From NCBI GenBank assembly GCA_013360825.1, contig JABWAY010000002.1, positions 1 to 39,376 of the forward strand: a stretch of 39,376 nucleotides of DNA, read 5' to 3'. A program made the translations under genes and the position numbers. Numbering within the stretch: the stretch's first letter is position 1; each line of letters opens with the position of its first letter. This stretch comes from Candidatus Brocadiia bacterium (GTDB taxonomy: Bacteria; Planctomycetota; MHYJ01; WSZJ01). Below the pieces are notes generated by a model that saw only the letters and a program-made list of their open reading frames with translations, searched no databases and was not told the origin of the DNA. Shown piece after piece: positions 12,932 to 29,339 of this stretch.

Positions 12932-12963
12932 TCCGTCCCTGAGCCGGCGACCGGGAGAGATCC

Positions 12964-15002: not shown

Positions 15003-15057
15003 CGCGGGGACCCGATTTCCCCTCGCAGCCCCGCGGAGTTCCCCGTAGGCTGGCCCC

Positions 15058-16089: not shown

Positions 16090-16120
16090 CCGGGGCCGGA
16101 AGCAGCCGGGAGCCCGCCTC

Positions 16121-16624
16121 GTGCCCTGGCTGATCGCCGCCGCGGCGGCACTCCTCTGGGGACTCTGGACGCTGGCGCCCTGGTTCCGGCGCGGCGCCGC
16201 GACCGATCACAGGGAACGCCACGGGTCCTCCGTCGTCTCGATCCAGGAGATCACTCTCGGCAACGCCCCGCCGAATCTCGCCGAGCGCTACTTCCGCCGC
16301 CTGCCGCGCTTCGGCGGCTGGCTCCTGTGGCAGACGCGCTGGAAGGAGTCCGGGCCGTCGGTCGTCTTCTTCGGGATCCCGCTCATCCGGTTCGGCGCGC
16401 TGCGCCGCGACGCCGACCGGGAGACGCTGACGGTCGCGCGCGCCGCGTTCTCGCGCCACGGGGGAACGCTGTCCTTCGTCCGCGCCGGCGGACGGGTCCG
16501 GATCGAGCTCCGCGGTTTCCGTCCCAGGCTGTTCATGCCCCTCTACTGGCACCTTCAGCTTCCCGTTCACGCGGCGATGAGCCGCGCGTTCCTGTGCTGG
16601 CTCTCGAGGAGACCCGCGTCATGA
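16121..16624 (+). CDS. Hypothetical protein with N-terminal membrane anchor
   Basis: GTG-initiated track ORF of 167 aa with high GC3. Its stop overlaps the next ATG (ATGA at 16621-16624). I recognise no family. Confidence 0.5.
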   Translation: MPWLIAAAAALLWGLWTLAPWFRRGAATDHRERHGSSVVSIQEITLGNAPPNLAERYFRRLPRFGGWLLWQTRWKESGPSVVFFGIPLIRFGALRRDADRETLTVARAAFSRHGGTLSFVRAGGRVRIELRGFRPRLFMPLYWHLQLPVHAAMSRAFLCWLSRRPAS

Positions 16625-17031
16625 CGGACAGCACCGCGGAGTACGCCCGACTGGTCCCGTTTCTACCCGTGACGGATGTGGCGTCGGCGCTGAGTTTCTA
16701 CGAAGCGGTCTTCGGGCTGTCCCGGACGAATCTGAACACGCAGGACGGGAGGATCGTGCACGCCGAGCTGCGGGACGGGGAAAGGGTCGTGCTCATGCTG
16801 GCGCCCGAAGGAATCCATTCGCCGGCCAGCCGCGCCCCCGCCGCGGGCGGCGGCGTGTCCCCGACGGAGATCCAGATCCGGGTCGACGATGCCGGGCGGG
16901 CCTGGGATACGGCCCTCTCACACGGCGCCAGAGGAGAGCGACCGCCGCGTGACGTCCCCTGGGGGGAGCGGCATGCGCACATCATCGATCCCGACGGGCA
17001 CCGCTGGCTTCTCTCCCAGGTCCTGCGCTGA
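16621..17031 (+). CDS. VOC-family (glyoxalase/bleomycin-resistance/dioxygenase) protein
   Basis: ATG at 16621 is residue 99 of track ORF 16327..17031. LVPFLPVTDVASALSFYEAVFG...HAEL...WGERHAHIIDPDGHRWLL shows typical VOC blocks. Confidence 0.8.
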   Translation: MTDSTAEYARLVPFLPVTDVASALSFYEAVFGLSRTNLNTQDGRIVHAELRDGERVVLMLAPEGIHSPASRAPAAGGGVSPTEIQIRVDDAGRAWDTALSHGARGERPPRDVPWGERHAHIIDPDGHRWLLSQVLR

Positions 17032-17048
17032 CGCCCGCCGCCCCCGGA

Positions 17049-17717
17049 TCAGACCGCGGGCGGCCCTCCTTCGCCGTCGTCACCGCAGGCGCCGCACGCC
17101 ATTTCGTCCGAGCTCTCGATCCCGTCGAGTTCATCCTCCGTCAGCCTGCGGCCGCCGACGAGCGCCAGCAGCCGCTCGGCCAGGGTCGTCCACGCGTCCA
17201 CCGGACACGCCGCCAGACGGGTGGCCATCCCCCCCGCGACGACCGACAGGTGGTCCTCGAAGAACTTCTCCCGCGCGGCGCGGGTGATCCCCGCGGCGTC
17301 CCCATCCCCGCGCGCCAGCGCGTAGGCCTCCTTCAGCCACAGGTACGCCGCGAAACCCGTCTCCGAGGCGACATGATCCGGCGGCTCCCCGGACACAGGC
17401 CGGAACCCGAACGCTTCGTACAGGTGCCCCGCCTCCGCCATCGCCCGCGCGGGGTCGCGGCGGCCGATGTAGGCCGCCTCCCGCGGGGATGCCGGTCCCC
17501 CCGGCCCGAACAGCGAGTCGTAGTCGGGAGATTCGATCGCCAGCAGCGTCCCGGCGGTCTTCCGGAGTTCCGGGACGCCGCTCTCCGCGACCAGCGCCGC
17601 ACCGTGCCGGCTTCGCGACTCCGAGGGGCGCTCGAAAAGCAGGCCGATGAGGCGGAATTCGGCCGCCTGCTGCAGAGCCGCCCGCGTCGCGGCGTCCTCC
17701 AGGATGTCCGTGCTCAT
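17049..17717 (-). CDS. TorD/NarJ/DmsD-family redox-enzyme maturation chaperone (delta subunit of the molybdoenzyme)
   Basis: ATG at 17717 overlaps the stop of the gamma gene (ATGA). It is 222 aa, with the AAEFRLIGLLFERP...LFGPGG...PREAAY..LYEAFGF pattern of TorD-like chaperones. It is the last gene of the operon. Confidence 0.8.
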   Translation of the reverse strand: MSTDILEDAATRAALQQAAEFRLIGLLFERPSESRSRHGAALVAESGVPELRKTAGTLLAIESPDYDSLFGPGGPASPREAAYIGRRDPARAMAEAGHLYEAFGFRPVSGEPPDHVASETGFAAYLWLKEAYALARGDGDAAGITRAAREKFFEDHLSVVAGGMATRLAACPVDAWTTLAERLLALVGGRRLTEDELDGIESSDEMACGACGDDGEGGPPAV

Positions 17718-18598
17718 GGTTTTTTCGCTCCCGTCAGGGTGAGGGGAATCCAGACCGTCCGCATCTTCCGTCCCCCGACGTCCCCGTCGGAGCCGTTCCA
17801 GACGGCGAAGGCCACGAGCGACGTGCCCCCGGGCGCAAGGCCGGACGGAAGCGGCCTCGTGATGACGACCGCCCATCCGGCGCCGGTCCGGCGTCCCAGC
17901 CCGGTGGAACTCTGGGACGGAGCGGGCCTCATCGTCCCAGGGCCGTCCGCCATCAGGTCCTGCACCGACTTCTTCGGCGACGGACTGACGATGTTCCCCA
18001 GCGACTTCGCCGGAGCGTACTGCTTCGCCATCTCCTCGGCCTTGCCCGGCGTCTTCTCCAGCCCCGGAGCCTCGAAGGGATAGTGATCGATGTTCGCGTT
18101 CGGATGCAGCGACTTGAGATCATCCGGCCGCCCGTCGATGAACGCCTGCGCGGTCGCGGTCCAGAACGCGATCTCCACGGGGCGCCCCGGCTCGCCCATC
18201 TGCGGGGCAGGCGTGTCCGGGCCGGAATTCGACGGCAGCTGCACCGCGCAGGCATCGGTGAACCGTGCGGCGTCCCGGACCGAGTCCTCCGTCGCGTCCG
18301 CCCATTCCAGCCGGAAGGCGATGGACTTCCCGTCCGTCAGCGCTCTCACCGTGACCTCGGTCGCCCCCGCCACCATCTTGCGGGGCTCCACCATGTCCTG
18401 GAGGATCAGCGGAGCCCTGAAGGCCTCCCCTGAACCCCACTGCGCATCCTCCGGCGTCGACGGCAGAGCGGCGACCTGCACCGCGCGAACCTCCGTCACC
18501 GGCGCCGGCGGAACAGGCCTGCTGCACCCCCACAGCCCTGCCGCCAGCACACCCGCCGCCGCCATCCACGTCCGACGTCCCAGTCGTCCGTATGCCAT
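17714..18598 (-). CDS. Haem-b gamma subunit of a type II DMSO-reductase-family enzyme (EB_dh / EbdC-DdhC-NxrC-like domain)
   Basis: ATG at 18598 is preceded by GAGGTG; the earlier ATG at 18619 lacks an RBS. Signal MAYGRLGRRTWMAAAGVLAAGLWGC. VRALTDGKSIAFRLEWADATED...FTDACAVQLP...PQMGEPGRPVEIAFW matches the ethylbenzene-dehydrogenase gamma-type haem-binding domain. Confidence 0.8.
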   Translation of the reverse strand: MAYGRLGRRTWMAAAGVLAAGLWGCSRPVPPAPVTEVRAVQVAALPSTPEDAQWGSGEAFRAPLILQDMVEPRKMVAGATEVTVRALTDGKSIAFRLEWADATEDSVRDAARFTDACAVQLPSNSGPDTPAPQMGEPGRPVEIAFWTATAQAFIDGRPDDLKSLHPNANIDHYPFEAPGLEKTPGKAEEMAKQYAPAKSLGNIVSPSPKKSVQDLMADGPGTMRPAPSQSSTGLGRRTGAGWAVVITRPLPSGLAPGGTSLVAFAVWNGSDGDVGGRKMRTVWIPLTLTGAKKP

Positions 18599-18608
18599 GG
18601 CATCACCT

Positions 18609-19736
18609 CTAGGGAACATTGGTCAGGAGAACGCCCCGGGCCGCATCCACCGCCATCCGGATGTACTTCGGCTCCTGGATCGGGACCCGGATCAGCTCCG
18701 TCCCGTCCTCGTCCAGACCGAGCATCTCCCCGCCCACCCGCCGGAACCTTGGGATGATCTGCTCCGTCGATCCGAACAGCGCCAGCAGACCCATCAGGTC
18801 CGGATCGTTCGGCGCGTTCAGGTACGCCTTCGTCGCCTCCTCGACCCCGGGCCCGAAAATCTGCGTCAGGAACGCCGCCGGGGCATGCAGCGGCGGCACG
18901 TAGTACACGTTCGGCTCCAGTCCGAACTGCGGGAAGAGCGGCAGCGCGATCTTCTTGACGTGGATCAGGTAGTCGATCGGATTGTCCTCGCGCATCTGGT
19001 CGGGCTTCGAGATCGACCCCGCCATCCGGATCTTCCCGATGCAGTTCGAGAAACACTGCGGCGCCAGCCCCTGCTCCTGCTTCGGATAGCACCCGATGCA
19101 CTTCTCCGACGTCCCCGTCATCGGATTGAAGAACACCTTCTTGTACGGGCACGCCTTCACGCACTCCTGGTACCCGCGGCACTTCCCCTGGTCGACCAGC
19201 ACGATCCCGTCCTCCGGCCGCTTGTAGATCGACCCCCGCGGACACGCCGCCAGACATCCCGGGTACGTGCAGTGATTGCAGATCCGCGCGAGATAGAAGA
19301 ACCAGTTCATATGAGGAAGCGTCATGTGGGCGCCCTTGGTGATGTCGCCGGCGCAGTCGTCTTCCCCGACGTTCGGGTATGCGTAGTCCCTGGAATCCGG
19401 GCGCCAGCCCAGCACGCGCTCCCCGGCGGGGGCCGACTCGAAGATCGTCTTCCCCTGGTACGTCTTCCCCTTCCAGTCCTGCGCGCCCAGCATGTCCAGG
19501 AGCTTCACATCCCACCCGAGCGGGTAGAACCCGTACGGCTTGCTCTCGACGTTGTTCCAGAGCATCGACTCCTGCCCCTTGCCGCTGGTCCATGTCGTCT
19601 TGCACGCGAGAGTGCATGTCTGGCAGGCGATGCACTTGTTCACGTCGAAAATCGCTCCGAACTGCTTCTTCGCCCGGACTTCGGGATACCAGTACGACAT
19701 CTCCCGGCCGAGCTGCCAGTTGTAGACACGGGGCAT
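18609..19736 (-). CDS. Fe-S beta subunit (NarH/NxrB/EbdB-like, four-cluster ferredoxin) of the molybdoenzyme
   Basis: 375 aa. Cys clusters: [44 protein letters not shown]...C. The N-terminus [11 protein letters not shown]...[12 protein letters not shown] resembles NarH/NxrB. Confidence 0.9.
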
Positions 19737-22700
19737 CAGCGTTTCTCCTCACCGGAGCCGTCGGGTTTGCGGACGAAACCGCCCTTCAGGAAGGTCTTCA
19801 TGGCGGCATTCTCATAGCGGGGACGGAAGCCCAGGTCCGCGGGTCGCCAGAGGCCCTTGCCCTCCAGCCCGCCGGGCTCCGCCTTCGTGATCTTCACGAT
19901 CGCTTCCCGCGGCGCGCCGACCGGGCAGTGGACATCGGGCATGAAGCCCTTGCCGATCACCTGGCCGAAGATGTCCTTGCGGACGAGGGAGTCGGTCATG
20001 TGGGTGGGCTTGAGCCAGCCGCGCGTGGCGGACTGGTGCGAACCTGAACGGAACATGGCCTGGTAGTTGGTGCGGGGGTTGCGGGCGAGCCCGTCGGCCC
20101 GGCTGGCCTGGCCCTGGACGGACCCGGGGGTCGCGCCGTACATGTTGAACCACATCCGGGTGACGCCCCGGGGGGTCCCCGGGTAGTACCGCGCCCGGCA
20201 CATCAGCCGCGCGACCTTGTAGTTCTCCTTGTCCTTCTCCCAGCCGCGGAACGGGCGGTCCTCGGGGTCGGCATCGATCCAGACGTAGTCGCCGTCTTCG
20301 ACGCCGACCGACTTGGCGTCGTCCGGGTGGATGTCCACGTACCCTTCGGTCGTGAACGGCATCCGTTTGTCGGTCCGGTAGATGTCTCCGAACGGGCCGA
20401 ACAGCATGGCGTTGATGTCGGTGTCGATCGGCGTCGTGTGCGAACCGTGGCGGTACTTGGGGGTGTGGAAGATGAACCCGTACCCGTCCTTCGCGAGCGG
20501 ATGAACGGTCGCCTTCGTCTCCGCCCAGGTCTTCACCACGTTCCGGCCCTGCCGGACTTCGCACGACAGGTCCTTCGGGTCCAGGCCGTAACTCTCCGGT
20601 CCCTTCACGCGGATCGCCTCGTGCGGCGGGGCGACGATCACGTTCGGCTCGTAAAACGTCGAGTCGATCGGCTCACGGTGCACGGCGAGGTTCTCGCCCG
20701 CATCGATGAACTCGTTCTCCTCCCGGTAGAACTCCAGACGCCCGGTCTTCGTGTACCACGGACGGGAGTCCTCCACCTGCTCGTACCCCACCGCCTTCGG
20801 GTACGTCCGGTTCATCATCAGGGCCGGGATCCCCTCCTTCGCCTTCGCCTCGAGGTCGGCGATCCGGTACCCCTTGCCGCAGCTGCTGAAGTCCAGGATG
20901 CGCTGCAGGTAGGTGTGAACCTGCCCCTGGTCGATGAAGTGCCACATCTTCGCGAACCTGTCGTCTCCGGTGTGTTTCGCGAGCGCGTGGCCGACCAGAG
21001 AGAGGATTTCGTGGTCGCCGCGCGTCTCGAAGGTCCGCGGGAGCGGGGTTCTGGGAAAGACGCAGAGGAAGGAGTTGGTGACCGAGGCGGTCATGTCCGG
21101 GAACTTGTGTTCGTGCCAGGCGTCCGCGGCGAACACGATGTCCGCCCATTCGCACGACGCCGTCCACCACCACTCGTTGACCGCGATCATCTCCATGCGC
21201 GGCAGAACGTTGACCACGGTGTTGTAGTGCCACTTGACGTTCCCCAGGATCGAGTTCGCGTTCGCGAACCACATCGACTTCGTCGGGCAGGGCATGTGCG
21301 ACTGCCCCGTGATCATCGTCTTCCCCATCTTGAGCGGGTGATCCTCGTGGTTGTAGTAGTGCGCCGACTCCGCCCGCCAGTACTGCTTCGGGCGCGCGGG
21401 CTTCGCCGGGTCGAGTTCCAGGTCGAACGGGTTCTCGTTGATGTACTGCGGGGAGCCGTTGAACAGCGCGACCCGGTAGTTCCCCGCGTACGAGCCGATG
21501 TTCCCGCCGATGCGCCCCGTGTTTCCCGTGAGGGCCGCGAGCAGGAACAGCGAACGGTCCTTGTTGTCGCTGTTGAAGAACTGATTGGGACCCATGCCGA
21601 CCGCGAACAGCGTCGTTCCGGGCTGGGCCGCAAAGTGCTTCGCCAGCGACTCCACGGCGGGTGCGGGCGCCCAGGTGAGCTCCTCCGTGGTCTTCGGATC
21701 GAAGTGGGCGACATACTCCCAGGTCAGGTCCCAGACCGTGCGGCAGCGGACCTTCGTGCCGTCCTGGAGCGTGACTTCGACCGACCCGGAGAGCCTCGGA
21801 TCGCCGACGGGGGAGTGGGCGCCGACCTGGTCGCGGGAGATCGCCTTCGGCGTCCCCGAGACCGCGTCCCACCACACGTAGTCGCCCCACTCGTTCCGCA
21901 TGTCCTCGCTCACGTACATCGTCTTCTGCATCCCCGGAGGCGGCGCCTTCTCGCCCGCCTTCAGGACCGTGATCTGGTTGGTCAGCGTCGCCGGCGTGCC
22001 TCCGAACACCTCCGCGGCACGCAGCATCTTCAGCGTGTCCATCCGGACCAGGAGCGGCAGGTCGGTGAACTTCTTCACGTAGTCCGCGTCGTAGAGCTTG
22101 TCCCTCATGATCACGTGCGCAAACCCGGTCGCCAGCGCGCCGGTCGTCCCCGGCCGCACGACCAGCGCCTCGTCGGCCTTGCTCGACGTCGCGGAATACT
22201 CGCAGGCGATGACGACCACCTTCGTCCCGTTCGCGCGGGCCTCCGTCAGCCAGTGCGAGTCCGGCATCTTCGTCGTGATCCAGTTCATCCCCCAGATCAC
22301 CACGGTCTTCGAGTGCTCCACCGCGTTCAGGTCCCACTCGACCGTCTGCTGCCCCGTCACCATCGGATGCCCGGGAGGCAGGTCGGTGTGCCAGGAGTAG
22401 TTGTCGAACCCCCGCCCGCCCAGCGCGGCGTCCGGCCCGACCCCGCGGACCTTCGAGTCGAGCAGGGCCATCGAGTTCGCCATCCGGTACAGCCCGAAGA
22501 CCCGCGTGATCCCCAGCAGCGGCATCCCGCCGCGGAACTTCAGCGTCTGCGTCCCGGCTCCCTTCATCGCCGCGATCGTCTCCGGATAGTAGTGCTGCTT
22601 CTCCAGCAGCGCCGCCCCCTTCTCCCCCGAATACGTCGTCGCAATGTTGATCAGAACCCGCGCCGCAATGTCCGCCGCCTCCTCGTGCGTGACGCGAACC

Positions 22701-23200
22701 CAGTTGTCCCGCGCCCGGTTGAAGTACTCCTTCGGCGGCAGTCCGTCCTCACCGCGCGGGAAACCCAGGTCCACCCACTTCTTGTACCCCTCGCGCACCA
22801 TGCAGTGCCTCAGCCGCCGGTCGCCGTAGAACCGCCGCGTCAGCGCCAGACCCTTCTGGCAGATCCGCGGATCCCAGCGGTGTGAGGTGATCCGCTTTCC
22901 GTCGGCGTCCTCCGCAAGGCCGTACTTCATGCTCGGCCCGATCCGGGTGACGATCCCGTTCTTCACGAAGGCGCGGAGAATGCAGTTGTGCGTGTCGTTC
23001 GGCGCGCACGTAAACGTGAACGTGGAGTCGTACGCCCAGAGATCCCGGTAGGTCTTCTCCCAGTCCCGGTTCGGGTACTTCTCGAGCGGGTTGCCGACCG
23101 GCTCGTCCGCCCCCCAGCTCTCCGACGCCGACATGGCCAGCGCCCCGAAGCCGAGGGAACTGAGGTTCTGCATGAAGTTGCGGCGTGTGATCCGGTTCAT
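19736..23200 (-). CDS. Tat-exported molybdopterin (Mo-bisPGD) catalytic alpha subunit, type II DMSO-reductase family, NarG/NxrA-like
   Basis: 1154 aa. Twin-arginine signal [13 protein letters not shown]...AMSASES. FS0 region [10 protein letters not shown]..x40..C. WHTDLPP aligns with NarG WYCD(222)LPP, the Asp Mo ligand. The start overlaps the cytochrome c stop (ATGA), and the stop shares one base with the beta start (TGATG). Confidence 0.9.
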
Positions 23201-24885
23201 TTCTTCACCTCCCAGGTGCGCAGAAACGCGACGATCGCTTCAATCTCCCCGGCAGACAGGGCCTGCCGCGCGGGAGACCCGCTTGCGAACGACGGCATGG
23301 TCGTGCCGGACCTGCCGCGCCGGATGGACTCGAACAGGTAGGTGTCCGTCGCGGCCTTCAGGAACGCCGTGTTGTTCAGGGCGACGCCTTCCGCTCCCTC
23401 GCCGTCCTTCCCGTGGCAGGTCGCGCAGTGCGCCGCGAAGAGCTGTGCGCCGGCCCCCGGCTCGTCCTTCGCCCAGCGGGCAGGCTTCGTGTCCTTCTCC
23501 GGTCCGATCCCCCCGGCCGTGGACCGCAGATACGCCACGATCGCGTCGATCTCACGGGGCCGGAGCCCTCCTTCCTTTTCACCCCATGCCGGCATCCGCC
23601 GCCCCGGCCGGCCGTGGAGGATCGACTGCTTCAGGAAATCGTCGGTGGCGACGGCCAGGAAATCCCGGTTGCCGACGGCGGGGAAGGGCTGTGCTCCGGC
23701 GAAGCGCATTCCTTCGCCGGAGGTGCCGTGGCAGCTGGCGCAGAACGTGGCGTAGAGCGTCGAACCGTCCGTCGAGAACTCCCGTTCGCCGAGCCGCAGG
23801 GCCCGGGCGCGGTCAGGCGGCCAGAGAGCCTCGGGGGCGTCGGTCCGCCGGAGGGACAGGAGATAGGTCACCAGGGAGTCGACCTGGGCGTCCGTCAGTC
23901 CGAAGTCCGGCATCGCGGAGCCGGGGACGATCGTCGCAGGGGACTTGAGGTGCTGCGCGTGCCAGTTGGCGATCGTGTGCTCGCCCGTGACGCGGGAAAA
24001 GTTCGTCAGCGCCGGGTCGCGTTCGCCGGCGCGCGAGAGGTCGGGGCCGTCGTCGCCGCCGACACCGTTCACCTTGTGGCATCCGCGGCAGCCGAGCGAG
24101 TTGAAGAGCGACTTGCCGTGCGCGAGGGCGGGAACGCCGATGCGCGAGCTCAGATACCCCTCCATGACGGTCCGGTCCCGCTCGGGGATCTCCCCGAACG
24201 ACGCCTTCCACGGAAAGGCATCCGGCGGCTTCCCCGCCTCCGCAAGCCGGCGATTCCCCAGGTGTCCTTCGTACCAGTCGCCCGGAATGCCCTTCGCCCC
24301 GATCGCGGACAGGTCGGGTCCTTCGCCGCCTCCCGCACCGCCGGGCCGGAAGGTCCCTCCCTTGCCGTCGATTCTGTGGCAGGAGAGGCAGTCATAGCGG
24401 TCGACGAGGTCCCGGCCGCGGTCGAGCATGGCGAGGTTGGGGACGTGGACATGGGAGTGGCAGCTCCCGCACCCGGCCTGGACGTGTTTCAGCGGGATCA
24501 TCGGCTGGGGCCAGTGCGGGGCGGTCCCATGCGCGCCGGCCTTCGTCGTGGCGCGTCCCTGCCCGGCGTGACAGGTGGTGCAGCCGATCTCGGCCGGCTC
24601 GTGGTGGACCGGGGGGTGCTTCCCATAGATGCGGTCCCCCGCGATCCCCGTCTCCCCGGGAGCCATCCCGACGTGGCAGCTCACGCACCGGTCGGTCGCC
24701 TTCAGCGCCGGGACGACGATCTGCCGGAGCTGGATCTCGAACTCCGTCCCCGGGGGCAGGTGGGCCGCCACGTGGGCCTGCGCCTGGCGCCACTCGCTCA
24801 GGACGTGCTCGGAGTACGCCGCCCACAGGAGCACGAGCAGCGTTCCCGTGCTGGCCCACAACAGCAGGTGTTTGTTCCGGTTCAT
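23197..24885 (-). CDS. Membrane-anchored heptahaem cytochrome c
   Basis: 562 aa with an N-terminal TM helix ([18 protein letters not shown]). Seven CxxCH motifs: CVSCH, CTTCH, CGSCH, CLSCH, CRGCH, CASCH, CATCH. The last three sit in class-I-like domains with MPDF/MPAW/MPSF distal Met contexts. Confidence 0.85.
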
Positions 24886-24886
24886 G

Positions 24887-26449
24887 TTAGTGCCCCGGCC
24901 ACTGAGAGGGAGACCAGTAGAAGTCCCAGTTCGGACCGCGGAACCAGGTCCCGATCACGGTGAGGACGAGGAAGCCCATCAGAAAACAGGTGAAGAGCCC
25001 CAGGGCTCCTGCCCGCATCGAATTGAAGCGACGGACGATGTAGACCGAGTAGAGGCCGTAGATCAGCGTCAGCACCGTCCCGGGGTTGATCGCGGTGATC
25101 AGCAGCTGCGGTGTCCCCGGGAACCACTGGCGGAGCCATCCGAAACGGATGGCGATCGCCTCCAGGGCCAGGACCGTGCCCAGTCCGAAGACCGCCGACC
25201 AGGCGACGAGCTTCCCGCCCCCCGGCCCGCCGAACCACTCGCCGGTTCCCTTCTTCTCGCGGTCGAGGTAGGGGATCAGCCCGAGACCGACGATGATGAT
25301 TCCGGGGATCAGGACTCCCCCCGCGAACGCGGAGTGGGCGACCAGTTCCTGGAGGCCGAGGAAGTACCACGGAGCCTTGGCGGGGTTCTCCGGGACGTTC
25401 GGGTTGGCGAGTTCCTTCAGCGGCGCGTCGGAGACGATGCTGAGCAGAACGCAGACAAGAAACGTCAGCATGAACACCGCCGCCTCCGCGTAGAACAGGT
25501 GCGGCATCGACGGCACCGTGTTCTCAGCCCCGGCACCGACCGCGGGTGTGCGGCCGCGGACGACGGCCGCCAGGGACCAGGTCTTTCTCGGCGCCGCCGT
25601 CCACGCCGGCACCGCCTCCGGGTCCGGGCCGCCGAGTCTCCGGTCCGCGTCCTCCGGTTTCGCCAGGCCGCCGTCCTTCCGGATGCGCCAGAAGTGAATG
25701 CCGAGCAGCCCGCAGAGCGCGATCGGGAGAATCATGACGTGCAGCAGGTAGAACCGGATCAGCGCTTCGGCCCCGACCTCATCGGACCCGAGAAGGAGGA
25801 GTTTCTGGAGTCCGCCCGGGTCGAAGTGAGGCGTCAGGCCGATCGGATCTGTGACCTCGCGCGGGGACTGGGCGATGTTGGCGCCGATGGTGATGGCCCA
25901 GTAGGCGAGCTGGTCCCAGGGAAGGAGATACCCGGTGAAGCTGAGACCGAGCGTGACGACGAGGAGGAACATCCCGGTCGCCCAGTTGAACTCCCTGGGT
26001 TTCCGGTACGACGCGGTGTAGAAGACCCGCGCCATGTGAATCAGCACCGAGAAGACCATGACGTTGGCGGACCAGCGGTGAATGTTGCGCAGGAACCGGC
26101 CGGTCGGGACGACGAAGTGGATGTCCTTGATCGACTGGTAGGCCGCCTCCGGGTAGGGCTTGTAATAGAACATGAGGAGGATGCCGGTCACGGTGGCGAT
26201 GAGGAAGGAGCTCAGGGCAACCATCCCGAGGCCCCAGGTCGTGGACCAGCGCAGGCTCCAGCGGTGCGTGCGCACGCTCTGGACATGGAGGAAAAAGTTC
26301 GAGAAAACGAAGTCGTTGCGGCTCCGGTCGCTGTCCGGCCTGCCGGTCCGGAACATCGACTCGATGAACCTCCGCGGCACTTTTCGCAGGTTGTCCGCAA
26401 AGGTCCCGAGACCTGTGCGTTCCTCCTGCCCGTGGCCGGGGGTGTTCAT
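24887..26449 (-). CDS. Cytochrome b of a Rieske/cytochrome b complex (fused b6 + subunit IV-like, 520 aa)
   Basis: Haem-ligand pairs are H-x13-H (HRWSANVMVFSVLIH) and H-x14-H (HVMILPIALCGLLGIH). GYLLPWDQLAYW is a block typical of cytochrome b. The subunit IV-like part contains APWYFLGLQE. ATG 26449 overlaps the Rieske stop (ATGA). Confidence 0.9.
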   Translation of the reverse strand: MNTPGHGQEERTGLGTFADNLRKVPRRFIESMFRTGRPDSDRSRNDFVFSNFFLHVQSVRTHRWSLRWSTTWGLGMVALSSFLIATVTGILLMFYYKPYPEAAYQSIKDIHFVVPTGRFLRNIHRWSANVMVFSVLIHMARVFYTASYRKPREFNWATGMFLLVVTLGLSFTGYLLPWDQLAYWAITIGANIAQSPREVTDPIGLTPHFDPGGLQKLLLLGSDEVGAEALIRFYLLHVMILPIALCGLLGIHFWRIRKDGGLAKPEDADRRLGGPDPEAVPAWTAAPRKTWSLAAVVRGRTPAVGAGAENTVPSMPHLFYAEAAVFMLTFLVCVLLSIVSDAPLKELANPNVPENPAKAPWYFLGLQELVAHSAFAGGVLIPGIIIVGLGLIPYLDREKKGTGEWFGGPGGGKLVAWSAVFGLGTVLALEAIAIRFGWLRQWFPGTPQLLITAINPGTVLTLIYGLYSVYIVRRFNSMRAGALGLFTCFLMGFLVLTVIGTWFRGPNWDFYWSPSQWPGH

Positions 26450-26943
26450 ACGGTCTCCTTCGTGCCGGGCGGCACGACCGTCCCCTCATCGATCAGAATC
26501 GCCCCTCCGCCGGCGGACCGGACGGACAGCCACGGGAGCCCCTTCGGCGCGGGCCCGCGGAGCACGGTCCCGTCCGGCGCGAACTGCGACCCGTGGCAGG
26601 GGCAGTCGAAGCCCATGGCCGCGGGTTTCACGATGCAGCCGAGGTGCGTGCAGACGGTGGACATGGCGAAGACCCTGTCGCCGTCCTTGAACACCACGAC
26701 CGACCGGCCCTCCGGGAAGAAGGGTGTTCCGGACGGGAGGCTCTCCGGAAGCGTTACCTTGAATTTCTTCGCCGCCGACGGCAGCACGGCGGCCTTCGGC
26801 AGCTTTGCCGCGCCCAGCGCGGCGAAACCGCAGGCGCCCGCGGCCATCGAGGCCGCGGCAATGCCGAGGAAGTCCCGGCGCGGCATGGCCTCGGGATCCA
26901 GGCGGGAAGGCTTCCCGGGGGACGGCTCCGAATGCGTGCTCAT
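26446..26943 (-). CDS. Rieske [2Fe-2S] protein with twin-arginine signal
   Basis: 165 aa, the C-terminal part of track ORF 26446..28200. It has RRDFLGIAAA, CTHLGC and CPCHGS. ATG 26943 overlaps the stop of the upstream gene (ATGA). Confidence 0.9.
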   Translation of the reverse strand: MSTHSEPSPGKPSRLDPEAMPRRDFLGIAAASMAAGACGFAALGAAKLPKAAVLPSAAKKFKVTLPESLPSGTPFFPEGRSVVVFKDGDRVFAMSTVCTHLGCIVKPAAMGFDCPCHGSQFAPDGTVLRGPAPKGLPWLSVRSAGGGAILIDEGTVVPPGTKETV

Positions 26944-28865
26944 GCGATCCTCCAGTCCACGGTGAACTGCACCCGATCCATCGCGATCGCCTCCACCGGG
27001 CACCTCCGGGCACAGAGAGCGCACCGGATGCACCGGTCCTCGTCCTTCAGAATGGCGGAGTTCCCTTCTGCGTCCGCCCCGCCGCCGAGGGCGTCCTCGA
27101 CCGCCGCCTCGAGCCACTCCGACGGACCCATCGCCGACAGCGGCACCAGCTTCAGGCAGAGTGTCGGGCAGACGTCCGCGCATCCGCCGCAGAGCACGCA
27201 GCGGGATCCGTCGAAGACCGGCGTCACGCCGCAGTCGAGGCATCGCGACGCTTCCCGGCGCGCCTGCTCCTCCGTGTATCCCTTCTCCACCGGCACGTCC
27301 ACGCCGCCCATCCGTTCGTGCGGGTCCGCCGTCGGGATCTCCACCCGCCGGATCGACTCGTACCCGTGCTCGCGGGTGTACCGTTCCTGCGTCACGAAGT
27401 CCGTCCGGACCTCGACCTCGAGGCGGCGGCCGGTCAGGTGCGAGTAGATGGAGCGCGCGGCCTTTTTCCCGGAGGCGACGGCGTCGATGAGGAGCCGCGG
27501 GCCGTGCGCCAGGTCGCCCGCCACGAAAACGCCGGCGGCGGTCGACTGCAGCGTCTCGCGATCGACCGTCGGCCACCCCGGGCGCGCCTGCTGGACATCC
27601 GTCCCGCCGTCCTGGAGGAACGACAGGTCCGCGGCCTGACCTGTCGCGAGCAGCACGGTGTCGCAGGCGACCGTCTGCCGGCGCGCCTCGTCGTACACGG
27701 GCGCGAACTTCCGGTCCGCGTCGAAGACCCGAAGACACTTCCGGAAGGTCACTCCCGTGATTCTCCCGTCCGCCCCGCGGAGAATTTCCACGGGGCCCCA
27801 CCCGTTCAGCCGCTCGACCCCTTCCTCGTCTCCCTCCCGGATCTCGACCGTGTCCGCGGGCATTTCCTCCAGCGTTTCGAGGGATGCGAGGCGGACTTTC
27901 CGGGTTCCCGGCAGCCGGATCGCCGTGCGCGCCGCGTCGGTCGCCAGGTTGCGCAGCACGGTCCGCGCGACGTCGTAGGCGACGTTGCCGCCGCCGATGA
28001 CGAGCACATCGGAGCCGATCGCCAGCGGTTCCCCGACGGAGACGGCCCGCAGGAAGTCCACCCCCCCGAACACGCCGGGGCCGGCCTCGCCAGGCAGACC
28101 GAGCCCCCGCGAACGTTTCGCCCCCACGCACAGCAGGATCGCCCGGTGGCGCCGGCGGAGTTCGGCGAAACTGACGTCCTTTCCGACCGTCACCCCGCAC
28201 CGGATCTCGACGCCCAGCGCCTGGATCACGGCGATTTCCCGCTGGATCAGCGCGCGCGGCAGGCGGTAGGCGGGGATCCCGACGGCCAGCATCCCCCCGG
28301 GCACCTTCTCGATGTCGTACACGACGGGCTTGAACCCCATCAGCGCCAGGTCATGGGCCGCGGACAGCCCCGCCGGACCTCCTCCGATGATGCCGACCGA
28401 GTCCCCGTTTACCTTCGGGATCCGTCCGGCAAAGGCCCGAAGCGTCGCCGCCATCTCCTCCGCATCCGAGCAGGTCTCCGGCGTATGGGCCTGAAGCGCC
28501 TTCCACACGTCTCCGGGATCGCGCACATCCGGGCCGGCCTGCTCGCAGGCGAACCGTTTCAGCGCCCGGATCGAGACCGGGCGGTCGAGCGCCACGAATC
28601 TGCCGTCGGCGTCCGTGCGCGGGATCTTCCCGCGGCGGCAGGCGGTCTCACAGGGGGCCCCGCAGACCCGGCCGCAGATGGAGGCGAACGGATTCGGGCC
28701 GCGGGCGATCAGGTAGGCCTCCTCGAACCTGCCGGCGGCGACCGCCCGGACGTAGCCGCGGGCGTCCGTGTGGACCGGGCAGGCCGCCTGGCAGGCGACC
28801 AGTTCCCGATGGTGGGACTCACCCGGGACGGAGACGTTGAGCCGCGGGGAGGCGGTGTCGTTCAT
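26940..28865 (-). CDS. GltD-like (glutamate synthase small-subunit family) FAD/NAD(P)H oxidoreductase with N-terminal Fe-S sites and a C-terminal 2x[4Fe-4S] ferredoxin domain; cytoplasmic
   Basis: ATG 28865 is residue 86 of track ORF 26940..29120 and lies 5 nt after GGAG. 641 aa with no signal peptide. Motifs: CQAACPVH..CGRVCGAPCETAC, GIIGGGPAGLSAAHDL, VLVIGGGNVAYDVA, CLDCG..CVLCGGCADVCP..CIRCALCARRCP. Confidence 0.85.
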   Translation of the reverse strand: MNDTASPRLNVSVPGESHHRELVACQAACPVHTDARGYVRAVAAGRFEEAYLIARGPNPFASICGRVCGAPCETACRRGKIPRTDADGRFVALDRPVSIRALKRFACEQAGPDVRDPGDVWKALQAHTPETCSDAEEMAATLRAFAGRIPKVNGDSVGIIGGGPAGLSAAHDLALMGFKPVVYDIEKVPGGMLAVGIPAYRLPRALIQREIAVIQALGVEIRCGVTVGKDVSFAELRRRHRAILLCVGAKRSRGLGLPGEAGPGVFGGVDFLRAVSVGEPLAIGSDVLVIGGGNVAYDVARTVLRNLATDAARTAIRLPGTRKVRLASLETLEEMPADTVEIREGDEEGVERLNGWGPVEILRGADGRITGVTFRKCLRVFDADRKFAPVYDEARRQTVACDTVLLATGQAADLSFLQDGGTDVQQARPGWPTVDRETLQSTAAGVFVAGDLAHGPRLLIDAVASGKKAARSIYSHLTGRRLEVEVRTDFVTQERYTREHGYESIRRVEIPTADPHERMGGVDVPVEKGYTEEQARREASRCLDCGVTPVFDGSRCVLCGGCADVCPTLCLKLVPLSAMGPSEWLEAAVEDALGGGADAEGNSAILKDEDRCIRCALCARRCPVEAIAMDRVQFTVDWRIA

Positions 28866-29108
28866 GCCCGCTCCGCCGCCGCGCCTGCTGCCCTGCGGGG
28901 CGAATCGCCTGCGGAACCGGGGGGCCGGAAGGGGGACGCGGGAAGTGCGCAGGGCACCGGTGCTGTCGGGTGCGGGGTCATGGTGGGTCTCTCTTCTCAG
29001 CTCGGTGTGGGTGACCGGTCTGCTGGGGCAGGGGATCAGATTGCGAAAAGCGGGCCTCGGAAAAGAAGCGTGGCGCACGCGGATTGGGGGCGCTGGGGCC
29101 TGGGCACT

Positions 29109-29134
29109 GCGTGAAATCACGCTTCCGTGCGTGA
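29109..29134. promoter_or_regulatory. Three TCACGC/GCGTGA half-sites (candidate operator or alternative hairpins) in the leader of the respiratory operon
   Basis: The plus strand reads GCGTGA-aa-TCACGC-ttccgt-GCGTGA (29109-29114, 29117-29122, 29129-29134). It lies in a locally AT-richer patch about 245-270 nt upstream of ATG 28865. The sequence observation is certain; any function is unknown. Confidence 0.3.
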
Positions 29135-29278
29135 ATTGCCGCTATTGTCAGCGAACTCCCGCGCCGCACCCGCCGCCCCGCGCGGAACCGAGCCGGAGGC
29201 CACCCAGCCGGTGCGCAGAATCCTGCGAATTGGCGGCGACGTCCCTACTCCGGTGTCCCTTCCGCTGAAAACAACTCA

Positions 29279-29339
29279 CCCCACCCCGCAACCCCACCCA
29301 ACACCCGGATCCGCCCCTCCACCCGCCTCCCCCGCCCCC
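29279..29339 (-). repeat. Strand-asymmetric G-run tract (nine runs of 3-5 G on the coding strand) immediately 3' of the REC-PilZ stop codon
   Basis: The plus strand shows C-runs at 29279-82, 29284-87, 29292-95, 29297-99, 29304-06, 29314-17, 29322-24, 29329-33 and 29335-39. The minus-strand transcript would read GGGGGCGGGGGAGGCGGGTGGAGGGGCGGATCCGGGTGTTGGGTGGGGTTGCGGGGTGGGG. Confidence 0.6.

What the first reader, a model, noticed from the sequence alone, without database searches (positions are those of the whole stretch)
17049..28865. Eight-gene translationally coupled operon joining an NAD(P)H/FAD-FeS module, a Rieske/cytochrome b complex, a heptahaem cytochrome c and a periplasmic NXR/Nar-type molybdoenzyme
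Seen: eight minus-strand genes run head to tail from 28865 to 17049. The junctions are ATGA (26940-26943), ATGA (26446-26449), a 1-nt spacer (24886), ATGA (23197-23200), TGATG sharing one base (19736), a 10-nt spacer (18599-18608) lying within a GAGGTG Shine-Dalgarno, and ATGA (17714-17717). The gene order is: cytoplasmic GltD-like FAD/NAD(P)H + Fe-S protein, Tat-Rieske, fused cytochrome b6/subunit IV, membrane-anchored heptahaem c, Tat-exported Mo-bisPGD alpha (1154 aa), four-cluster beta, haem-b EB_dh-type gamma, TorD/NarJ-type chaperone.

Established: Rieske/cyt b complexes with an extra NAD(P)-oxidoreductase-like FAD subunit and multihaem cytochromes have been described for anammox planctomycetes (Kuenenia). 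There they are encoded separately from the NXR gene cluster. Periplasmic type II molybdoenzymes such as selenate or chlorate reductase receive electrons from bc1 via separately encoded cytochromes c.

Inference: here the whole chain (NAD(P)(H), quinone pool, Rieske/b, multihaem c, periplasmic molybdoenzyme) is one expression unit, which suggests a dedicated supercomplex. Two modes are plausible. (a) Q-cycle-coupled periplasmic oxyanion reduction (nitrate/chlorate/selenate-type). (b) Reverse or bifurcating operation, using electrons from periplasmic nitrite (or other substrate) oxidation to reduce quinone and NAD(P)+. I do not know of this complete arrangement being characterised, but I cannot search databases.
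Basis: partly seen in the sequence, partly recalled or inferred. Interest (0 to 1): 0.9.

Follow-up and report, generated by a model that had tools for sequence, protein, structure and literature searches.

The report
Nitrate-reductase operon with built-in bc complex
Eight tightly packed genes join an anammox-type Rieske/cytochrome b complex, including its NADH-linked flavoprotein, to a periplasmic nitrite-oxidoreductase-like molybdoenzyme; this same cassette occurs in over 100 bacterial species, including three cultured planctomycetes, and most likely respires nitrate.

Summary
Eight minus-strand genes (28865 to 17049) have exactly the reported junctions.

The arrangement is not peculiar to this genome. 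Of 106 species-level loci with enough upstream sequence, 105 carry the same four Rieske/b genes directly upstream of the molybdoenzyme. Hosts include Acidobacteriota, Planctomycetota, Binatia, Eisenbacteria, Zixibacteria, Desulfobacterota, Myxococcota and Acidimicrobiia.

Three cultured planctomycetes carry the full cluster. One is Thermogutta terrifontis, which grows anaerobically with nitrate. A 2017 paper noted its "complex III" genes beside "narGHI" but treated the enzyme as cytoplasmic and did not mention the flavoprotein.

- The Rieske protein is closest to the two Kuenenia Rieske/b proteins.
- The cytochrome b is a b6-subunit IV fusion without the haem cn cysteine.
- The flavoprotein is Nfn/Stn-like and has an NADH-type pocket.
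- The gamma subunit is a lipoprotein.
- Frequent neighbours are Rrf2, RIC, Crp/Fnr and Moco genes.

Best reading: a mobile quinol:nitrate oxidoreductase module whose low-potential branch is wired to NAD+/NADH. Direction and bifurcation are inferred, not shown.

I class it as a new variant of known kinds: haloarchaeal pNar with Rieske/b, and the anammox Rieske/b complexes. It is interesting because it makes the anammox NAD(P)-linked bc question testable in culturable heterotrophs.

The parts
26940..28865 (-). A: cytoplasmic FAD/NAD(H) iron-sulfur flavoprotein, 641 aa, GltD/NfnB/StnC-like, with an extra C-terminal 2x[4Fe-4S] domain
   Evidence: Pfam Fer4_20, Pyr_redox_2 and Fer4. The best PDB relatives are 9bov, 8oh5, 9n5u and 4ylf, with E-values from 2e-80 to 7e-55. 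20 Cys are at least 95% conserved. The NADPH motif YRR is replaced by S328-L329-E330, with E330 99% conserved. There is no TM helix.
26446..26943 (-). B: Tat-exported, membrane-anchored Rieske [2Fe-2S] protein, 165 aa
   Evidence: Pfam Rieske. RR of the Tat motif is 99% conserved. The cluster motifs are CTHLGC and CPCHGSxF. The best PDB hits, 9rk4_A and 9rk3_A, are Kuenenia-type Rieske proteins ranked ahead of b6f PetC.
24887..26449 (-). C: fused cytochrome b6 + subunit IV-like protein, 520 aa
   Evidence: Pfam Cytochrome_B; NCBIfam ExtP and ExtQ halves. The best PDB hits are cytochromes b6 (E=4e-37). H124/H138 and H237/H252 (x14 spacing) are invariant. Gly73 replaces the haem cn Cys. H55 and H62 before helix A are invariant. 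The Qo motif APWY is invariant. There are at least 7, probably 9, TM helices.
23197..24885 (-). D: membrane-anchored heptahaem cytochrome c, 562 aa: an N-terminal TM helix, a 4-haem part and three class I cytochrome c domains
   Evidence: CXXCH motifs at residues 67, 102, 139, 166, 266, 382 and 487. 107 of 111 homologues have 7 motifs. Pfam Cytochrom_C x3; CcoP/QcrC-like. TM helix at 7-25.
19736..23200 (-). E: Tat-exported Mo-bisPGD catalytic subunit, 1154 aa, NXR/pNAR-type
   Evidence: Full-length match to Kuenenia NxrA 7b04_B (E=7e-253), with 39.9% identity over 857 aligned residues. R6, R7, the FS0 residues C65, D69, H71, C73 and the presumed Mo-ligand D273 are 100% conserved.
18609..19736 (-). 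F: iron-sulfur beta subunit, 375 aa, 3x[4Fe-4S] + [3Fe-4S] pattern
   Evidence: TIGR03478 DMSO_red_II_bet, 259 bits. 16 Cys are 99-100% conserved. Group III reads C186-x5-C192-x3-C196. There is no signal peptide, so export by Tat hitch-hiking with E is inferred.
17714..18598 (-). G: haem-b gamma subunit (EB_dh fold), 294 aa, lipoprotein
   Evidence: Pfam EB_dh. The best PDB hit is Kuenenia NxrC 7b04_C. The haem ligands M134 and K278 are conserved and align with EbdC. The lipobox Cys25 is conserved in 99 of 111 homologues.
17049..17717 (-). H: NarJ/TorD-type assembly chaperone, 222 aa
   Evidence: Pfam Nitrate_red_del; TIGR03482. Present downstream in more than 95% of loci.
28866..29338 (-). 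473-nt upstream intergenic region, the presumed promoter and regulatory region
   Evidence: This is the only long non-coding gap in the unit. It holds a tandem 20-nt repeat at 29108-29147. In 45 of 89 other loci an Rrf2 regulator gene occupies this position.

Best explanation
The eight genes encode one self-contained, horizontally transferred respiratory module that reduces nitrate in the periplasm at the expense of membrane quinol.

Proposed electron path (all steps inferred):
1. Quinol is oxidised at the Qo site of a b6-type cytochrome b fused to subunit IV (C).
2. The high-potential electron goes to the Tat-Rieske protein (B).
3. It then runs along the membrane-anchored heptahaem cytochrome c (D).
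4. It reaches the haem b of the lipoprotein gamma subunit (G), passes the four Fe-S clusters of beta (F), and arrives at the Mo-bisPGD site of alpha (E). There nitrate is reduced to nitrite.
5. The low-potential electron crosses the membrane through the two b haems. An extra haem held by the invariant His55/His62 may also take part.
6. It is then exchanged with the cytoplasmic flavoprotein A (at least 4 Fe-S clusters, FAD, NADH-type pocket).

The preferred variant is the scheme proposed for the Kuenenia complexes. Quinol oxidation is bifurcated, nitrate reduction (+0.42 V) pulls the reaction, and NAD+ is reduced. The alternative is that A feeds NADH electrons to the n-side quinone site, making the whole unit an NADH:nitrate oxidoreductase with a Q cycle. 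H matures the molybdoenzyme.

Shown here: gene content, cofactor ligands, topology signals, conservation of the unit, and its presence in nitrate-respiring isolates.
Inferred: the direction of catalysis, physical association of the parts, and bifurcation.
For: 1. The unit is conserved. 105 of 106 loci have ABCD upstream and 112 of 116 have FGH downstream. Median gaps at all seven junctions are under 10 nt. Cross-module Mantel r of 0.77-0.80 equals the within-module values.
2. Cultured carriers exist. T. terrifontis, Thermostilla marina and Thermopirellula anaerolimosa carry Rrf2+ABCDEFGH, with proteins 34-74% identical to the window's (alpha about 70%). The T. terrifontis paper names these genes as the organism's Nar and discusses anaerobic growth with nitrate (PMC5673643).
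3. The neighbouring genes are typical of nitrate/NO respiration. An Rrf2 gene sits directly upstream in 45 of 89 loci, RIC (above the curated cut-off) in 28 loci, Crp/Fnr in 22 and MoaA in 11. A NorB gene lies next to the cluster in T. anaerolimosa.
4. E, F and G are the closest relatives of Kuenenia NxrA and NxrC among solved structures, and all ligands are conserved.
5. A-D match the architecture of the anammox NAD(P)-linked Rieske/b complexes, and the Rieske protein is closest to their Rieske proteins. It carries the Ser/Phe signature of Kustd1480, measured at +335 mV (PMC12954380).
6. There is precedent. Haloarchaeal pNar has Rieske and cytochrome b genes in the same cluster, and its nitrate reduction is antimycin-sensitive (cited in PMC4683180).
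7. A's nearest solved relatives are the bifurcating Nfn/Stn modules.
Against: - No experiment links this cluster to nitrate reduction. The T. terrifontis assignment is genomic.
- Alpha is an NXR homologue and Kuenenia NXR is bidirectional. One paper read Planctomycetota homologues as putative nitrite oxidisers (PMC10732223).
- If bifurcation runs alongside complex I, my own estimate gives about 10 charges moved per 2 e- to nitrate. That is near the thermodynamic limit, and a need for NADH made from quinol is not obvious in heterotrophs.
- The haem cn cysteine present in the Kuenenia cytochromes b is absent here, so the n-side chemistry may differ.
- L002 shows that the molybdoenzyme can be encoded without the bc module nearby.
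- In T. terrifontis this is the only annotated complex III, so it may not be dedicated to nitrate.
- The sequence relationship of A, C and D to the Kuenenia subunits was not tested directly.
Confidence: 0.6

Rival explanations
1. Nitrite-oxidising mode. The molybdoenzyme works as a true NXR. Electrons from periplasmic nitrite enter the heptahaem c and are pushed uphill through a reversed Rieske/b complex to quinone and NAD+, or pass from D to a terminal oxidase. The carriers would then be unrecognised nitrite oxidisers.
For: - Alpha's only close solved relative is Kuenenia NxrA, and the match is full length.
- NXR is reversible, and homologues in Planctomycetota MAGs were proposed as novel nitrite oxidisers (PMC10732223).
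- The C-terminal domains of D resemble CcoP and QcrC, which dock to oxidases.
Against: - Reversed bifurcation at Qo would consume NADH rather than produce it, so A has no productive role (inference).
- The cultured carriers are chemoorganotrophic facultative anaerobes and nitrate respirers, not nitrifiers (PMC5673643, PMC6995999).
- The gene neighbours (Rrf2, RIC, Crp/Fnr, NorB) fit anaerobic N-oxide respiration.
- Alpha is only about 40% identical to Kuenenia NxrA and forms its own clade, with at least 67% identity inside it.
Confidence: 0.12
2. Operon economy without a dedicated complex. A-D are simply the organism's general complex III, whose cytochrome c subunit serves several acceptors such as aa3 oxidase and nitrite reductase. 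The periplasmic nitrate reductase is co-transcribed but receives electrons by collision, not as a fixed supercomplex.
For: - In T. terrifontis, THTE_1510-1512 are the only complex III genes listed, and the organism also respires O2 with an aa3 oxidase (PMC5673643, Table S6).
- L002 carries EFGH without ABCD nearby.
- D ends in three mobile-looking class I cytochrome c domains.
Against: - Linkage in 105 of 106 loci across about ten phyla, with D/E overlapping or only a few nt apart, is much tighter than is usual for a general complex III and one of its acceptors.
- The cluster moves as a block; it is flanked by IS elements in T. marina.
- Both partners are membrane-tethered, D by a TM helix and G by a lipid anchor.
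Confidence: 0.18
3. Different substrate. The molybdoenzyme reduces another high-potential oxyanion, such as chlorate, perchlorate or selenate, or oxidises another substrate. The similarity to NXR would reflect ancestry only.
For: Type II DMSO-reductase enzymes switch substrates often. PcrA-type proteins are the second-best solved matches (E=4e-48). NCBIfam scores are below every equivalog cut-off.
Against: - The full-length match to NxrA is far stronger, 845 bits against 167.
- The neighbours relate to nitrate and NO, not to chlorite dismutase or selenium handling.
- T. terrifontis, which grows anaerobically with nitrate, has this as its annotated Nar (PMC5673643).
Confidence: 0.06

Closest known systems
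Kuenenia stuttgartiensis Rieske/cytochrome b complexes Kuste4569-4574 and Kustd1480-1485 (Kartal 2013; de Almeida 2016; Hauser et al. 2025, PMC12954380)
   Same: - b6-type cytochrome b plus an enlarged subunit IV.
- A Tat-Rieske protein with a high-potential signature; the window's Rieske protein is closest to these two in the PDB.
- A membrane-anchored multihaem cytochrome c in place of cytochrome f or c1.
- A cytoplasmic FAD/NAD(P) flavoprotein with about four Fe-S clusters.
- Invariant His residues N-terminal to helix A, where the AlphaFold3 models place an extra b haem.
   Different: - Here cytochrome b and subunit IV are fused.
- The haem cn Cys is replaced by Gly.
- There are seven haems rather than six or eight.
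- The flavoprotein has an NADH-type pocket (SLE).
- The terminal enzyme encoded in the same operon is an NXR-type molybdoenzyme rather than an HAO-like octahaem protein or nothing.
- The hosts are heterotrophs from many phyla, not anammox bacteria.
- Sequence relatedness of A, C and D to the Kuenenia subunits was not tested directly.
Haloarchaeal periplasm-facing nitrate reductase (pNar) clusters with narB (Rieske) and narC (cytochrome b) (Martinez-Espinosa 2007; Yoshimatsu 2007; cited in PMC4683180 and PMC8400030)
   Same: - A Tat-exported NarG/NxrA-type enzyme active outside the membrane.
- It is encoded together with a Rieske protein and a cytochrome b.
- The proposed coupling of nitrate reduction to a Q cycle.
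   Different: - Those clusters are archaeal.
- They have no NAD(P)-linked flavoprotein and no heptahaem cytochrome c.
- Alpha belongs to a different clade.
Kuenenia / Nitrospira / Nitrospina periplasmic nitrite oxidoreductase NxrABC (PDB 7b04)
   Same: - Full-length homology of alpha, and of gamma.
- The same FS0 motif (CxPNDTHxC), the Asp Mo ligand, and an EB_dh haem-b gamma subunit with Met/Lys ligands.
   Different: - Alpha is only about 40% identical.
- Gamma is a lipoprotein.
- No tubule-forming NXR-T was seen.
- The enzyme is genetically fused to a bc complex.
- The likely physiological direction is nitrate reduction.
Thermogutta terrifontis THTE_1506-1513 (Elcheninov et al. 2017, PMC5673643)
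   Same: It is the same cluster in the same order, with an Rrf2 gene upstream. Its proteins are 37-70% identical to the window's.
   Different: The paper described it as a cytoplasmic NarGHI plus a canonical bc1 'in close vicinity'. It did not mention the flavoprotein, the periplasmic orientation, the NXR affinity or the wide distribution.
Nfn / Stn flavin-based electron-bifurcating transhydrogenases (PDB 4ylf, 5jca, 8oh5, 9bov, 9n5u)
   Same: The core of A (two N-terminal [4Fe-4S] clusters, FAD and a nucleotide domain) is most similar to their bifurcating NADPH module.
   Different: - A lacks the YRR NADPH motif.
- A has an extra C-terminal di-cluster domain.
- A is encoded with a membrane bc complex rather than with NfnA or StnAB.
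Actinobacterial bcc-aa3 supercomplex (QcrABC + CtaCDEF)
   Same: A multi-domain cytochrome c subunit hard-wires a Rieske/b complex to its terminal enzyme without a soluble carrier. D gives a QcrC hit of 81 bits.
   Different: The terminal enzyme there is an oxidase, and there is no flavoprotein. The analogy is by function only.

Membership tests
Periplasmic NXR/pNAR clade of type II DMSO-reductase enzymes | Twin-arginine signal on the catalytic subunit | tested here: met
   The N-terminus reads [12 protein letters not shown]6 and R7 are 100% conserved in 125 homologues.
Periplasmic NXR/pNAR clade of type II DMSO-reductase enzymes | N-terminal FS0 cluster motif and an Asp ligand to Mo, aligned with NxrA/NarG | tested here: met
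   C65-x3-D69-x-H71-x-C73 aligns with the Kuenenia CSPNDTHAC motif. D273 in WHTD aligns with WHGD. All are 100% conserved. The ligand roles come from established knowledge of NarG and NxrA.
Periplasmic NXR/pNAR clade of type II DMSO-reductase enzymes | Beta subunit with four Cys groups, gamma subunit of the EB_dh haem-b type, and a NarJ/TorD chaperone | tested here: met
   TIGR03478, TIGR03477 and TIGR03482 hits. 16 Cys are conserved. M134 and K278 are conserved.
Periplasmic NXR/pNAR clade of type II DMSO-reductase enzymes | Nitrate/nitrite as substrate | not testable with these tools
   There is only indirect support: nitrate-respiring isolates and NO/nitrate-type gene neighbours.
Anammox-type NAD(P)-linked Rieske/cytochrome b complexes | b6-type four-helix cytochrome b with two His pairs, plus an enlarged subunit IV carrying the Qo motif | tested here: met
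   H124/H138 and H237/H252 with x14 spacing. The best PDB hits are cytochromes b6. The C-terminal half is ExtQ/subunit IV-like, has 4-5 hydrophobic helices and an invariant APWY motif. Here the two parts are fused into one protein.
Anammox-type NAD(P)-linked Rieske/cytochrome b complexes | Covalent haem cn (CxGG motif) | tested here: not met
   The position aligned to b6 Cys35 is Gly73, 100% conserved in this family. The Kuenenia models contain haem cN (PMC12954380).
Anammox-type NAD(P)-linked Rieske/cytochrome b complexes | Rieske protein related to Kuste4569/Kustd1480, with a high-potential Ser next to the cluster | tested here: met
   9rk4_A and 9rk3_A are the top PDB hits (E=2e-16 and 2e-15). 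CPCHGSxF is conserved, with the Ser present and Tyr replaced by Phe as in Kustd1480. The potential itself was not measured.
Anammox-type NAD(P)-linked Rieske/cytochrome b complexes | Cytoplasmic FAD/NAD(P) subunit with several Fe-S clusters, encoded in the operon | tested here: met
   A has Fer4_20 + Pyr_redox_2 + 2x4Fe-4S and 20 conserved Cys. It is present in 105 of 106 loci.
Anammox-type NAD(P)-linked Rieske/cytochrome b complexes | Membrane-anchored multihaem cytochrome c subunit | tested here: met
   D has a TM helix at 7-25 and 7 CXXCH motifs, conserved in 107 of 111 homologues.
Anammox-type NAD(P)-linked Rieske/cytochrome b complexes | Extra b haem bound by an N-terminal His at the dimer interface (an AlphaFold3 prediction for Kuenenia) | tested here: inconclusive
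   H55 and H62 before helix A are 100% conserved.
Anammox-type NAD(P)-linked Rieske/cytochrome b complexes | Direct sequence relatedness of A, C and D to the Kuenenia subunits; co-migration as one complex | not tested
   No Kuenenia sequences other than the two Rieske fragments could be reached. No biochemistry was possible.
Haloarchaeal pNar with NarB/NarC | Rieske and cytochrome b genes in the same cluster as a Tat-NarG-type enzyme | tested here: met
   This is a likeness in organisation, not homology of the whole cluster. The haloarchaeal sequences were not compared.
Haloarchaeal pNar with NarB/NarC | Antimycin-sensitive nitrate reduction | not testable with these tools
   This is an experimental feature.
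Nfn/Stn-type bifurcating GltD-like module (for subunit A) | NADPH pocket with the YRR motif after strand beta2 | tested here: not met
   Aligned to 9bov, 8oh5 and 9n5u, the YRR is S328-L329-E330 (95-99% conserved). An acidic residue at this position is the classical NADH signature (established Rossmann-fold rule; the specificity is an inference).

The most novel reading that the evidence does not exclude
The cassette is a quinone-based electron-bifurcating machine. Periplasmic nitrate reduction pulls one electron of menaquinol downhill, and the other is driven uphill through the b haems and an Fe-S wire to reduce NAD+ in the cytoplasm. This would be reverse electron transport without spending proton-motive force.

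It would be the missing 'favourable half-reaction' partner for the anammox-type NAD(P)-linked Rieske/b complexes. It would operate in hundreds of soil, sediment and wastewater species, including dominant Acidobacteriota, and could be tested genetically and biochemically in Thermogutta or Thermostilla.
Probability: 0.3. Interest if true: 0.88.

Novelty: new variant of a known kind. Interest (0 to 1): 0.7.

Why it matters
1. These alpha subunits are routinely scored as 'nxrA' or 'narG' in metagenomes. One study read them as novel nitrite oxidisers. If they are bc-coupled periplasmic nitrate reductases, nitrogen-cycle inventories need re-labelling for soils, aquifers and reactors where Bryobacterales, Solibacteraceae, Blastocatellia, Binatia and Planctomycetota are abundant.
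2. The function of Rieske/b complexes with an NAD(P) oxidoreductase subunit has been open since about 2011-2013, and in 2025 it still rested on models. This cassette links such a complex genetically to a defined high-potential reaction. It also occurs in pure-culture heterotrophs, so the bifurcation hypothesis becomes directly testable.
3. The cassette moves between phyla as one block. It is an example of a complete plug-in respiratory chain segment.

Tried and rejected
- **Literature.** Ten full-text searches combined NXR/nxrA, Rieske, cytochrome b, Acidobacteria/Planctomycetota, pNar and the Kuenenia locus tags. None found a paper describing the full eight-gene unit. Hits on Margulisbacteria/Melainabacteria (PMC6349859), Chloroflexi (PMC3971608), peatland Acidobacteria (10.1101/197269) and Microflora Danica were irrelevant.
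- **T. terrifontis locus.** It was found through a protein search seeded with a Thermogutta MAG sequence.
- **Cultured Acidobacteria.** A fourth scan seeded with a Paludibaculum MAG found only MAGs.
- **Regulatory sites.** No FNR-box lies in the upstream region. The Rrf2 regulators could not be assigned to NsrR, IscR or RirA.
- **Promoter and terminator scan.** It was uninformative at 70% G+C.
- **Dibrova 2017 'clade G-prime'.** I could not verify that it is this family, because the figures and supplements are not held.
- **Rejected readings.** Assembly artefact is excluded by six independent assemblies and 105 species. A cytoplasmic NarGHI reading is excluded by the Tat signal, the EB_dh gamma subunit and the absence of NarI.
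- **Not run.** I did not run structure prediction. Only single chains can be modelled, and the homologues taken from loci may not be submitted.

Full report
**1. Observation**

The window is contig JAPKGT010000012.1 of MAG GCA_026647635.1, at about 70% G+C. Its nearest alpha homologues are from Planctomycetota MAGs.

Eight minus-strand ORFs run from 28865 to 17049. All start with ATG and have no internal stop.
- ATGA overlaps at A/B, B/C, D/E and G/H.
- A 1-nt spacer at C/D.
- TGATG at E/F.
- A 10-nt spacer within GAGGTG at F/G.

Recognisable Shine-Dalgarno sequences precede six of the seven downstream genes; the one before D is weak. There is no promoter-like site inside the cluster, and terminator-like hairpins do not exceed chance.

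Pfam and NCBIfam confirm each assignment. The same DNA was assembled independently six times.

**2. Conservation**

Between 560 and 579 of the matched stretches encoded relatives of alpha.

From the loci fetched I obtained 138 distinct alpha genes.
- Of 106 with at least 6 kb upstream, 105 have A, B, C and D directly upstream in the same order.
- Of 116 with at least 3 kb downstream, 112 have F, G and H.
- Median distances at all seven junctions are below 10 nt. For the module boundary D/E the median is 5 nt and the 90th percentile is 47 nt.

Pairwise distances of bc-module proteins correlate with those of the molybdoenzyme as strongly as proteins within one module do. Mantel r is 0.77-0.80 across modules and 0.78-0.80 within them, with p = 0.001. 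The eight genes are therefore inherited together.

Hosts named in the records include:
- many Acidobacteriota (Bryobacterales, Solibacteraceae, Blastocatellia, Pyrinomonadaceae, Vicinamibacterales, Thermoanaerobaculia);
- Planctomycetota (Pirellulales, Thermoguttaceae, Phycisphaerae);
- Binatia, Eisenbacteria, Zixibacteria, Desulfarculaceae, Myxococcales and Acidimicrobiia.

Identities do not follow taxonomy. A Thermoguttaceae alpha is 81-82% identical to acidobacterial ones but about 71% identical to the window's. In Thermostilla marina the cluster lies between transposase genes. This points to transfer of the block as a whole.

The single exception is L002. It has an Rrf2 gene followed by EFGH, with no ABCD within 10 kb.

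**3. Cultured carriers**

A protein search seeded with a Thermogutta MAG sequence returned the 'respiratory nitrate reductase alpha chain' of Thermogutta terrifontis (94% identical to the seed). It also returned homologues from Thermopirellula anaerolimosa and Thermostilla marina.

All three genomes carry Rrf2 + ABCDEFGH. Their proteins are 34-74% identical to the window's, with alpha about 70%.

Elcheninov et al. 2017 (PMC5673643) list:
- THTE_1506 as TorD, THTE_1507 as 'NarI', THTE_1508 as NarH and THTE_1509 as NarG ('deep lineage');
- THTE_1510-1512 as cytochrome c1, cytochrome b and Rieske protein.

[quoted passage not shown] They treated the enzyme as cytoplasmic and did not mention the flavoprotein gene.

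Thermoguttaceae are described as facultatively anaerobic chemoorganotrophs that use external electron acceptors (PMC6995999).

**4. Anatomy of the molybdoenzyme module**

Alpha:
- It matches Kuenenia NxrA (7b04_B) over its full length (E = 7e-253), at 39.9% identity over 857 aligned residues. Identity inside its own clade is 67-84%.
- The twin arginines, the FS0 motif C65/D69/H71/C73 and Asp273 are invariant. Asp273 aligns with the Asp of the Kuenenia WHGD motif, the expected Mo ligand.

Beta has 16 conserved Cys in the pattern for 3x[4Fe-4S] + [3Fe-4S].

Gamma:
- Its best solved relative is Kuenenia NxrC.
- It keeps the Met and Lys that align with the EbdC haem-b ligands.
- Its N-terminus is a lipoprotein signal whose Cys is conserved in 99 of 111 homologues. 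The enzyme is therefore probably tethered to the membrane.
- The public gene call starting at 18481 is too short.

**5. Anatomy of the Rieske/b module**

Rieske protein (B):
- Its two best PDB matches are 9rk4_A and 9rk3_A, ranked ahead of all b6f and bc1 Rieske proteins.
- From their motifs (CPCHGSKY and CPCHGSGF) and molecule names, these are the Kuenenia proteins Kuste4569 and Kustd1480 of Hauser et al. 2025.
- The family-wide motif CPCHGSxF keeps the Ser that raises the potential and has Phe instead of Tyr. Kustd1480 has the same pattern and was measured at +335 mV (PMC12954380).

Cytochrome b (C):
- It is closest to cytochromes b6 (E = 4e-37) rather than bc1 cytochromes b (1e-25). It has the b6-type x14 His spacing in helix D.
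- It is fused to a subunit IV-like half with an invariant Qo motif APWY, and probably has nine TM helices.
- The Cys that binds haem cn in b6 is an invariant Gly here. This fits the remark of Dibrova et al. 2017 that loss of haem cn goes with fusion of cytochrome b and subunit IV (PMC5600118).
- Two invariant His residues (55 and 62) lie in the roughly 70-residue n-side extension before helix A. In the Kuenenia AlphaFold3 models, an N-terminal His of each monomer binds an extra b haem that bridges to the flavoprotein. I could not align the two.

Heptahaem cytochrome c (D): it has one N-terminal TM helix, four closely spaced haem sites and three class I domains. 107 of 111 homologues have seven sites.

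Flavoprotein (A):
- It has no TM helix and 20 conserved Cys, enough for at least four clusters.
- Its best solved relatives are the NADPH-binding, flavin-bifurcating modules of Nfn/Stn-type enzymes: 9bov, 8oh5, 9n5u and 4ylf.
- Where those proteins have YRR after strand beta2, A has Ser-Leu-Glu, with the Glu 99% conserved. By the usual Rossmann-fold rule this indicates NADH rather than NADPH. This is an inference.

**6. Neighbourhood**

In the window the flanks are housekeeping genes. A PilZ-receiver gene and an MFS gene lie upstream.

Across the other loci the recurrent neighbours are:
- an Rrf2-family regulator on the same strand within 1 kb upstream of A, in 45 of 89 loci;
- the di-iron Fe-S repair protein RIC, above NCBIfam's cut-off, in 28 loci;
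- a Crp/Fnr regulator, in 22 loci;
- an alginate-export-type porin, in 18 loci;
- YwiC, in 16 loci;
- MoaA, in 11 loci.

T. anaerolimosa also has a NorB gene and a full Moco biosynthesis set next to the cluster. These neighbours are what one sees around anaerobic nitrate/NO respiration genes. That is an inference from established knowledge.

**7. Mechanism**

Two schemes give every subunit a role, and both reduce nitrate.

(i) The Kartal/Hauser bifurcation scheme. Menaquinol (about -0.07 V) gives one electron to the high-potential chain, which ends in nitrate/nitrite (+0.42 V). It gives the other, through the b haems and the Fe-S wire, to NAD+ (-0.32 V). The sum is favourable. The published arithmetic for nitrite in place of nitrate is in PMC12954380.

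(ii) NADH input. A delivers NADH electrons to the n-side quinone site, and the complex runs a Q cycle towards nitrate.

I prefer (i), with modest confidence, for three reasons. A Rieske protein with a high-potential signature is paired with what are, from my own knowledge, menaquinone-using hosts. The flavoprotein is Nfn-like. The haem cn site is absent.

Against (i): by my own rough accounting, (i) combined with complex I would approach the thermodynamic limit. A nitrite-oxidising mode leaves A without a productive role and has no support from cultures.

**8. Comparison with what is known, and novelty**

The parts are known:
- anammox-type NAD(P)-linked Rieske/b complexes;
- periplasmic NXR/pNAR enzymes;
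- co-clustering of pNar with Rieske and cytochrome b genes in haloarchaea;
- adjacency of 'complex III' and 'Nar' in T. terrifontis;
- NxrA-like genes in Planctomycetota MAGs (PMC12954380, PMC4683180, PMC5673643, PMC10732223).

In ten searches I did not find any description of the complete unit including the flavoprotein. Nor did I find its periplasmic, lipoprotein-anchored nature, its NADH-type pocket, or its conservation as a mobile block across about ten phyla.

Dibrova et al. mention a clade of long cytochromes b 'in large conserved operons ... of an unknown function'. This may be the same family. I could not check it.

I therefore class the finding as a new variant of a known kind. The value lies in re-labelling widespread 'nxrA' genes, and in offering culturable organisms in which the NAD(P)-linked bc hypothesis can be tested.

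Noticed in passing
window 18481-18598 (minus strand): Public gene calls start the gamma subunit at GTG 18481, giving 255 aa with no signal peptide. The ATG at 18598 adds a lipoprotein signal whose lipobox Cys is conserved in 99 of 111 homologues, so the deposited annotation is probably truncated.
   Followed up: yes
L190 (Thermostilla marina BAAHYR010000001.1), 1-23456: The Rrf2+ABCDEFGH cluster and a split alginate-export porin gene lie between IS3-type and DDE transposase genes. Two 545-aa alpha-L-fucosidase genes flank the whole stretch. It looks like an inserted island.
   Followed up: partly
L191 (Thermopirellula anaerolimosa), 152-3530 and 16177-21034: A qNOR-like NorB gene and an Rrf2-hemerythrin fusion lie just upstream of the cluster. 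A complete Moco biosynthesis set (MoaA, MoaD, MoaE, MoeA, MoaC/B, MobA) lies just downstream.
   Followed up: no
L002 (Planctomycetia SJ466), 9337-16165: This is the only locus where the molybdoenzyme genes, preceded by an Rrf2 gene, lack the Rieske/b genes within 10 kb. Its alpha is 83% identical to the window's.
   Followed up: partly
window 29108-29147: A tandem 20-nt direct repeat (TGCGTGAAATCACGCTTCCG / TGCGTGAATTGCCGCTATTG) lies about 250 nt upstream of gene A. It may be a regulator binding site. No FNR box is present in this region.
   Followed up: no
window 29339-30100 (minus strand): A receiver-PilZ protein (253 aa) is encoded just upstream of the cluster, where about half of the other loci have an Rrf2 regulator. 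The window has no Rrf2 homologue at all.
   Followed up: partly
window 34608-37082 (minus strand) and 1539-4523 (minus strand): A stop-to-stop ORF joins a DUF7133 domain to the DXP reductoisomerase domains. This may be two genes in one frame or a real fusion. Another ORF combines a Ser/Thr kinase with an FGE-sulfatase domain.
   Followed up: no
several loci, e.g. L011, L013, L015, L051 (E/F, F/G and G/H junctions): In about 10% of loci the gaps after alpha, or around gamma, are 400-1100 nt. That is enough room for an extra small gene or an insertion. The content was not examined.
   Followed up: no
window 26940-28865, residues 542-570 of protein A: Three further conserved Cys (C542, C545, C570) lie beside the two CxxCxxCxxxCP motifs, and C377 and C401 are also conserved. 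Subunit A may bind a fifth metal centre.
   Followed up: no
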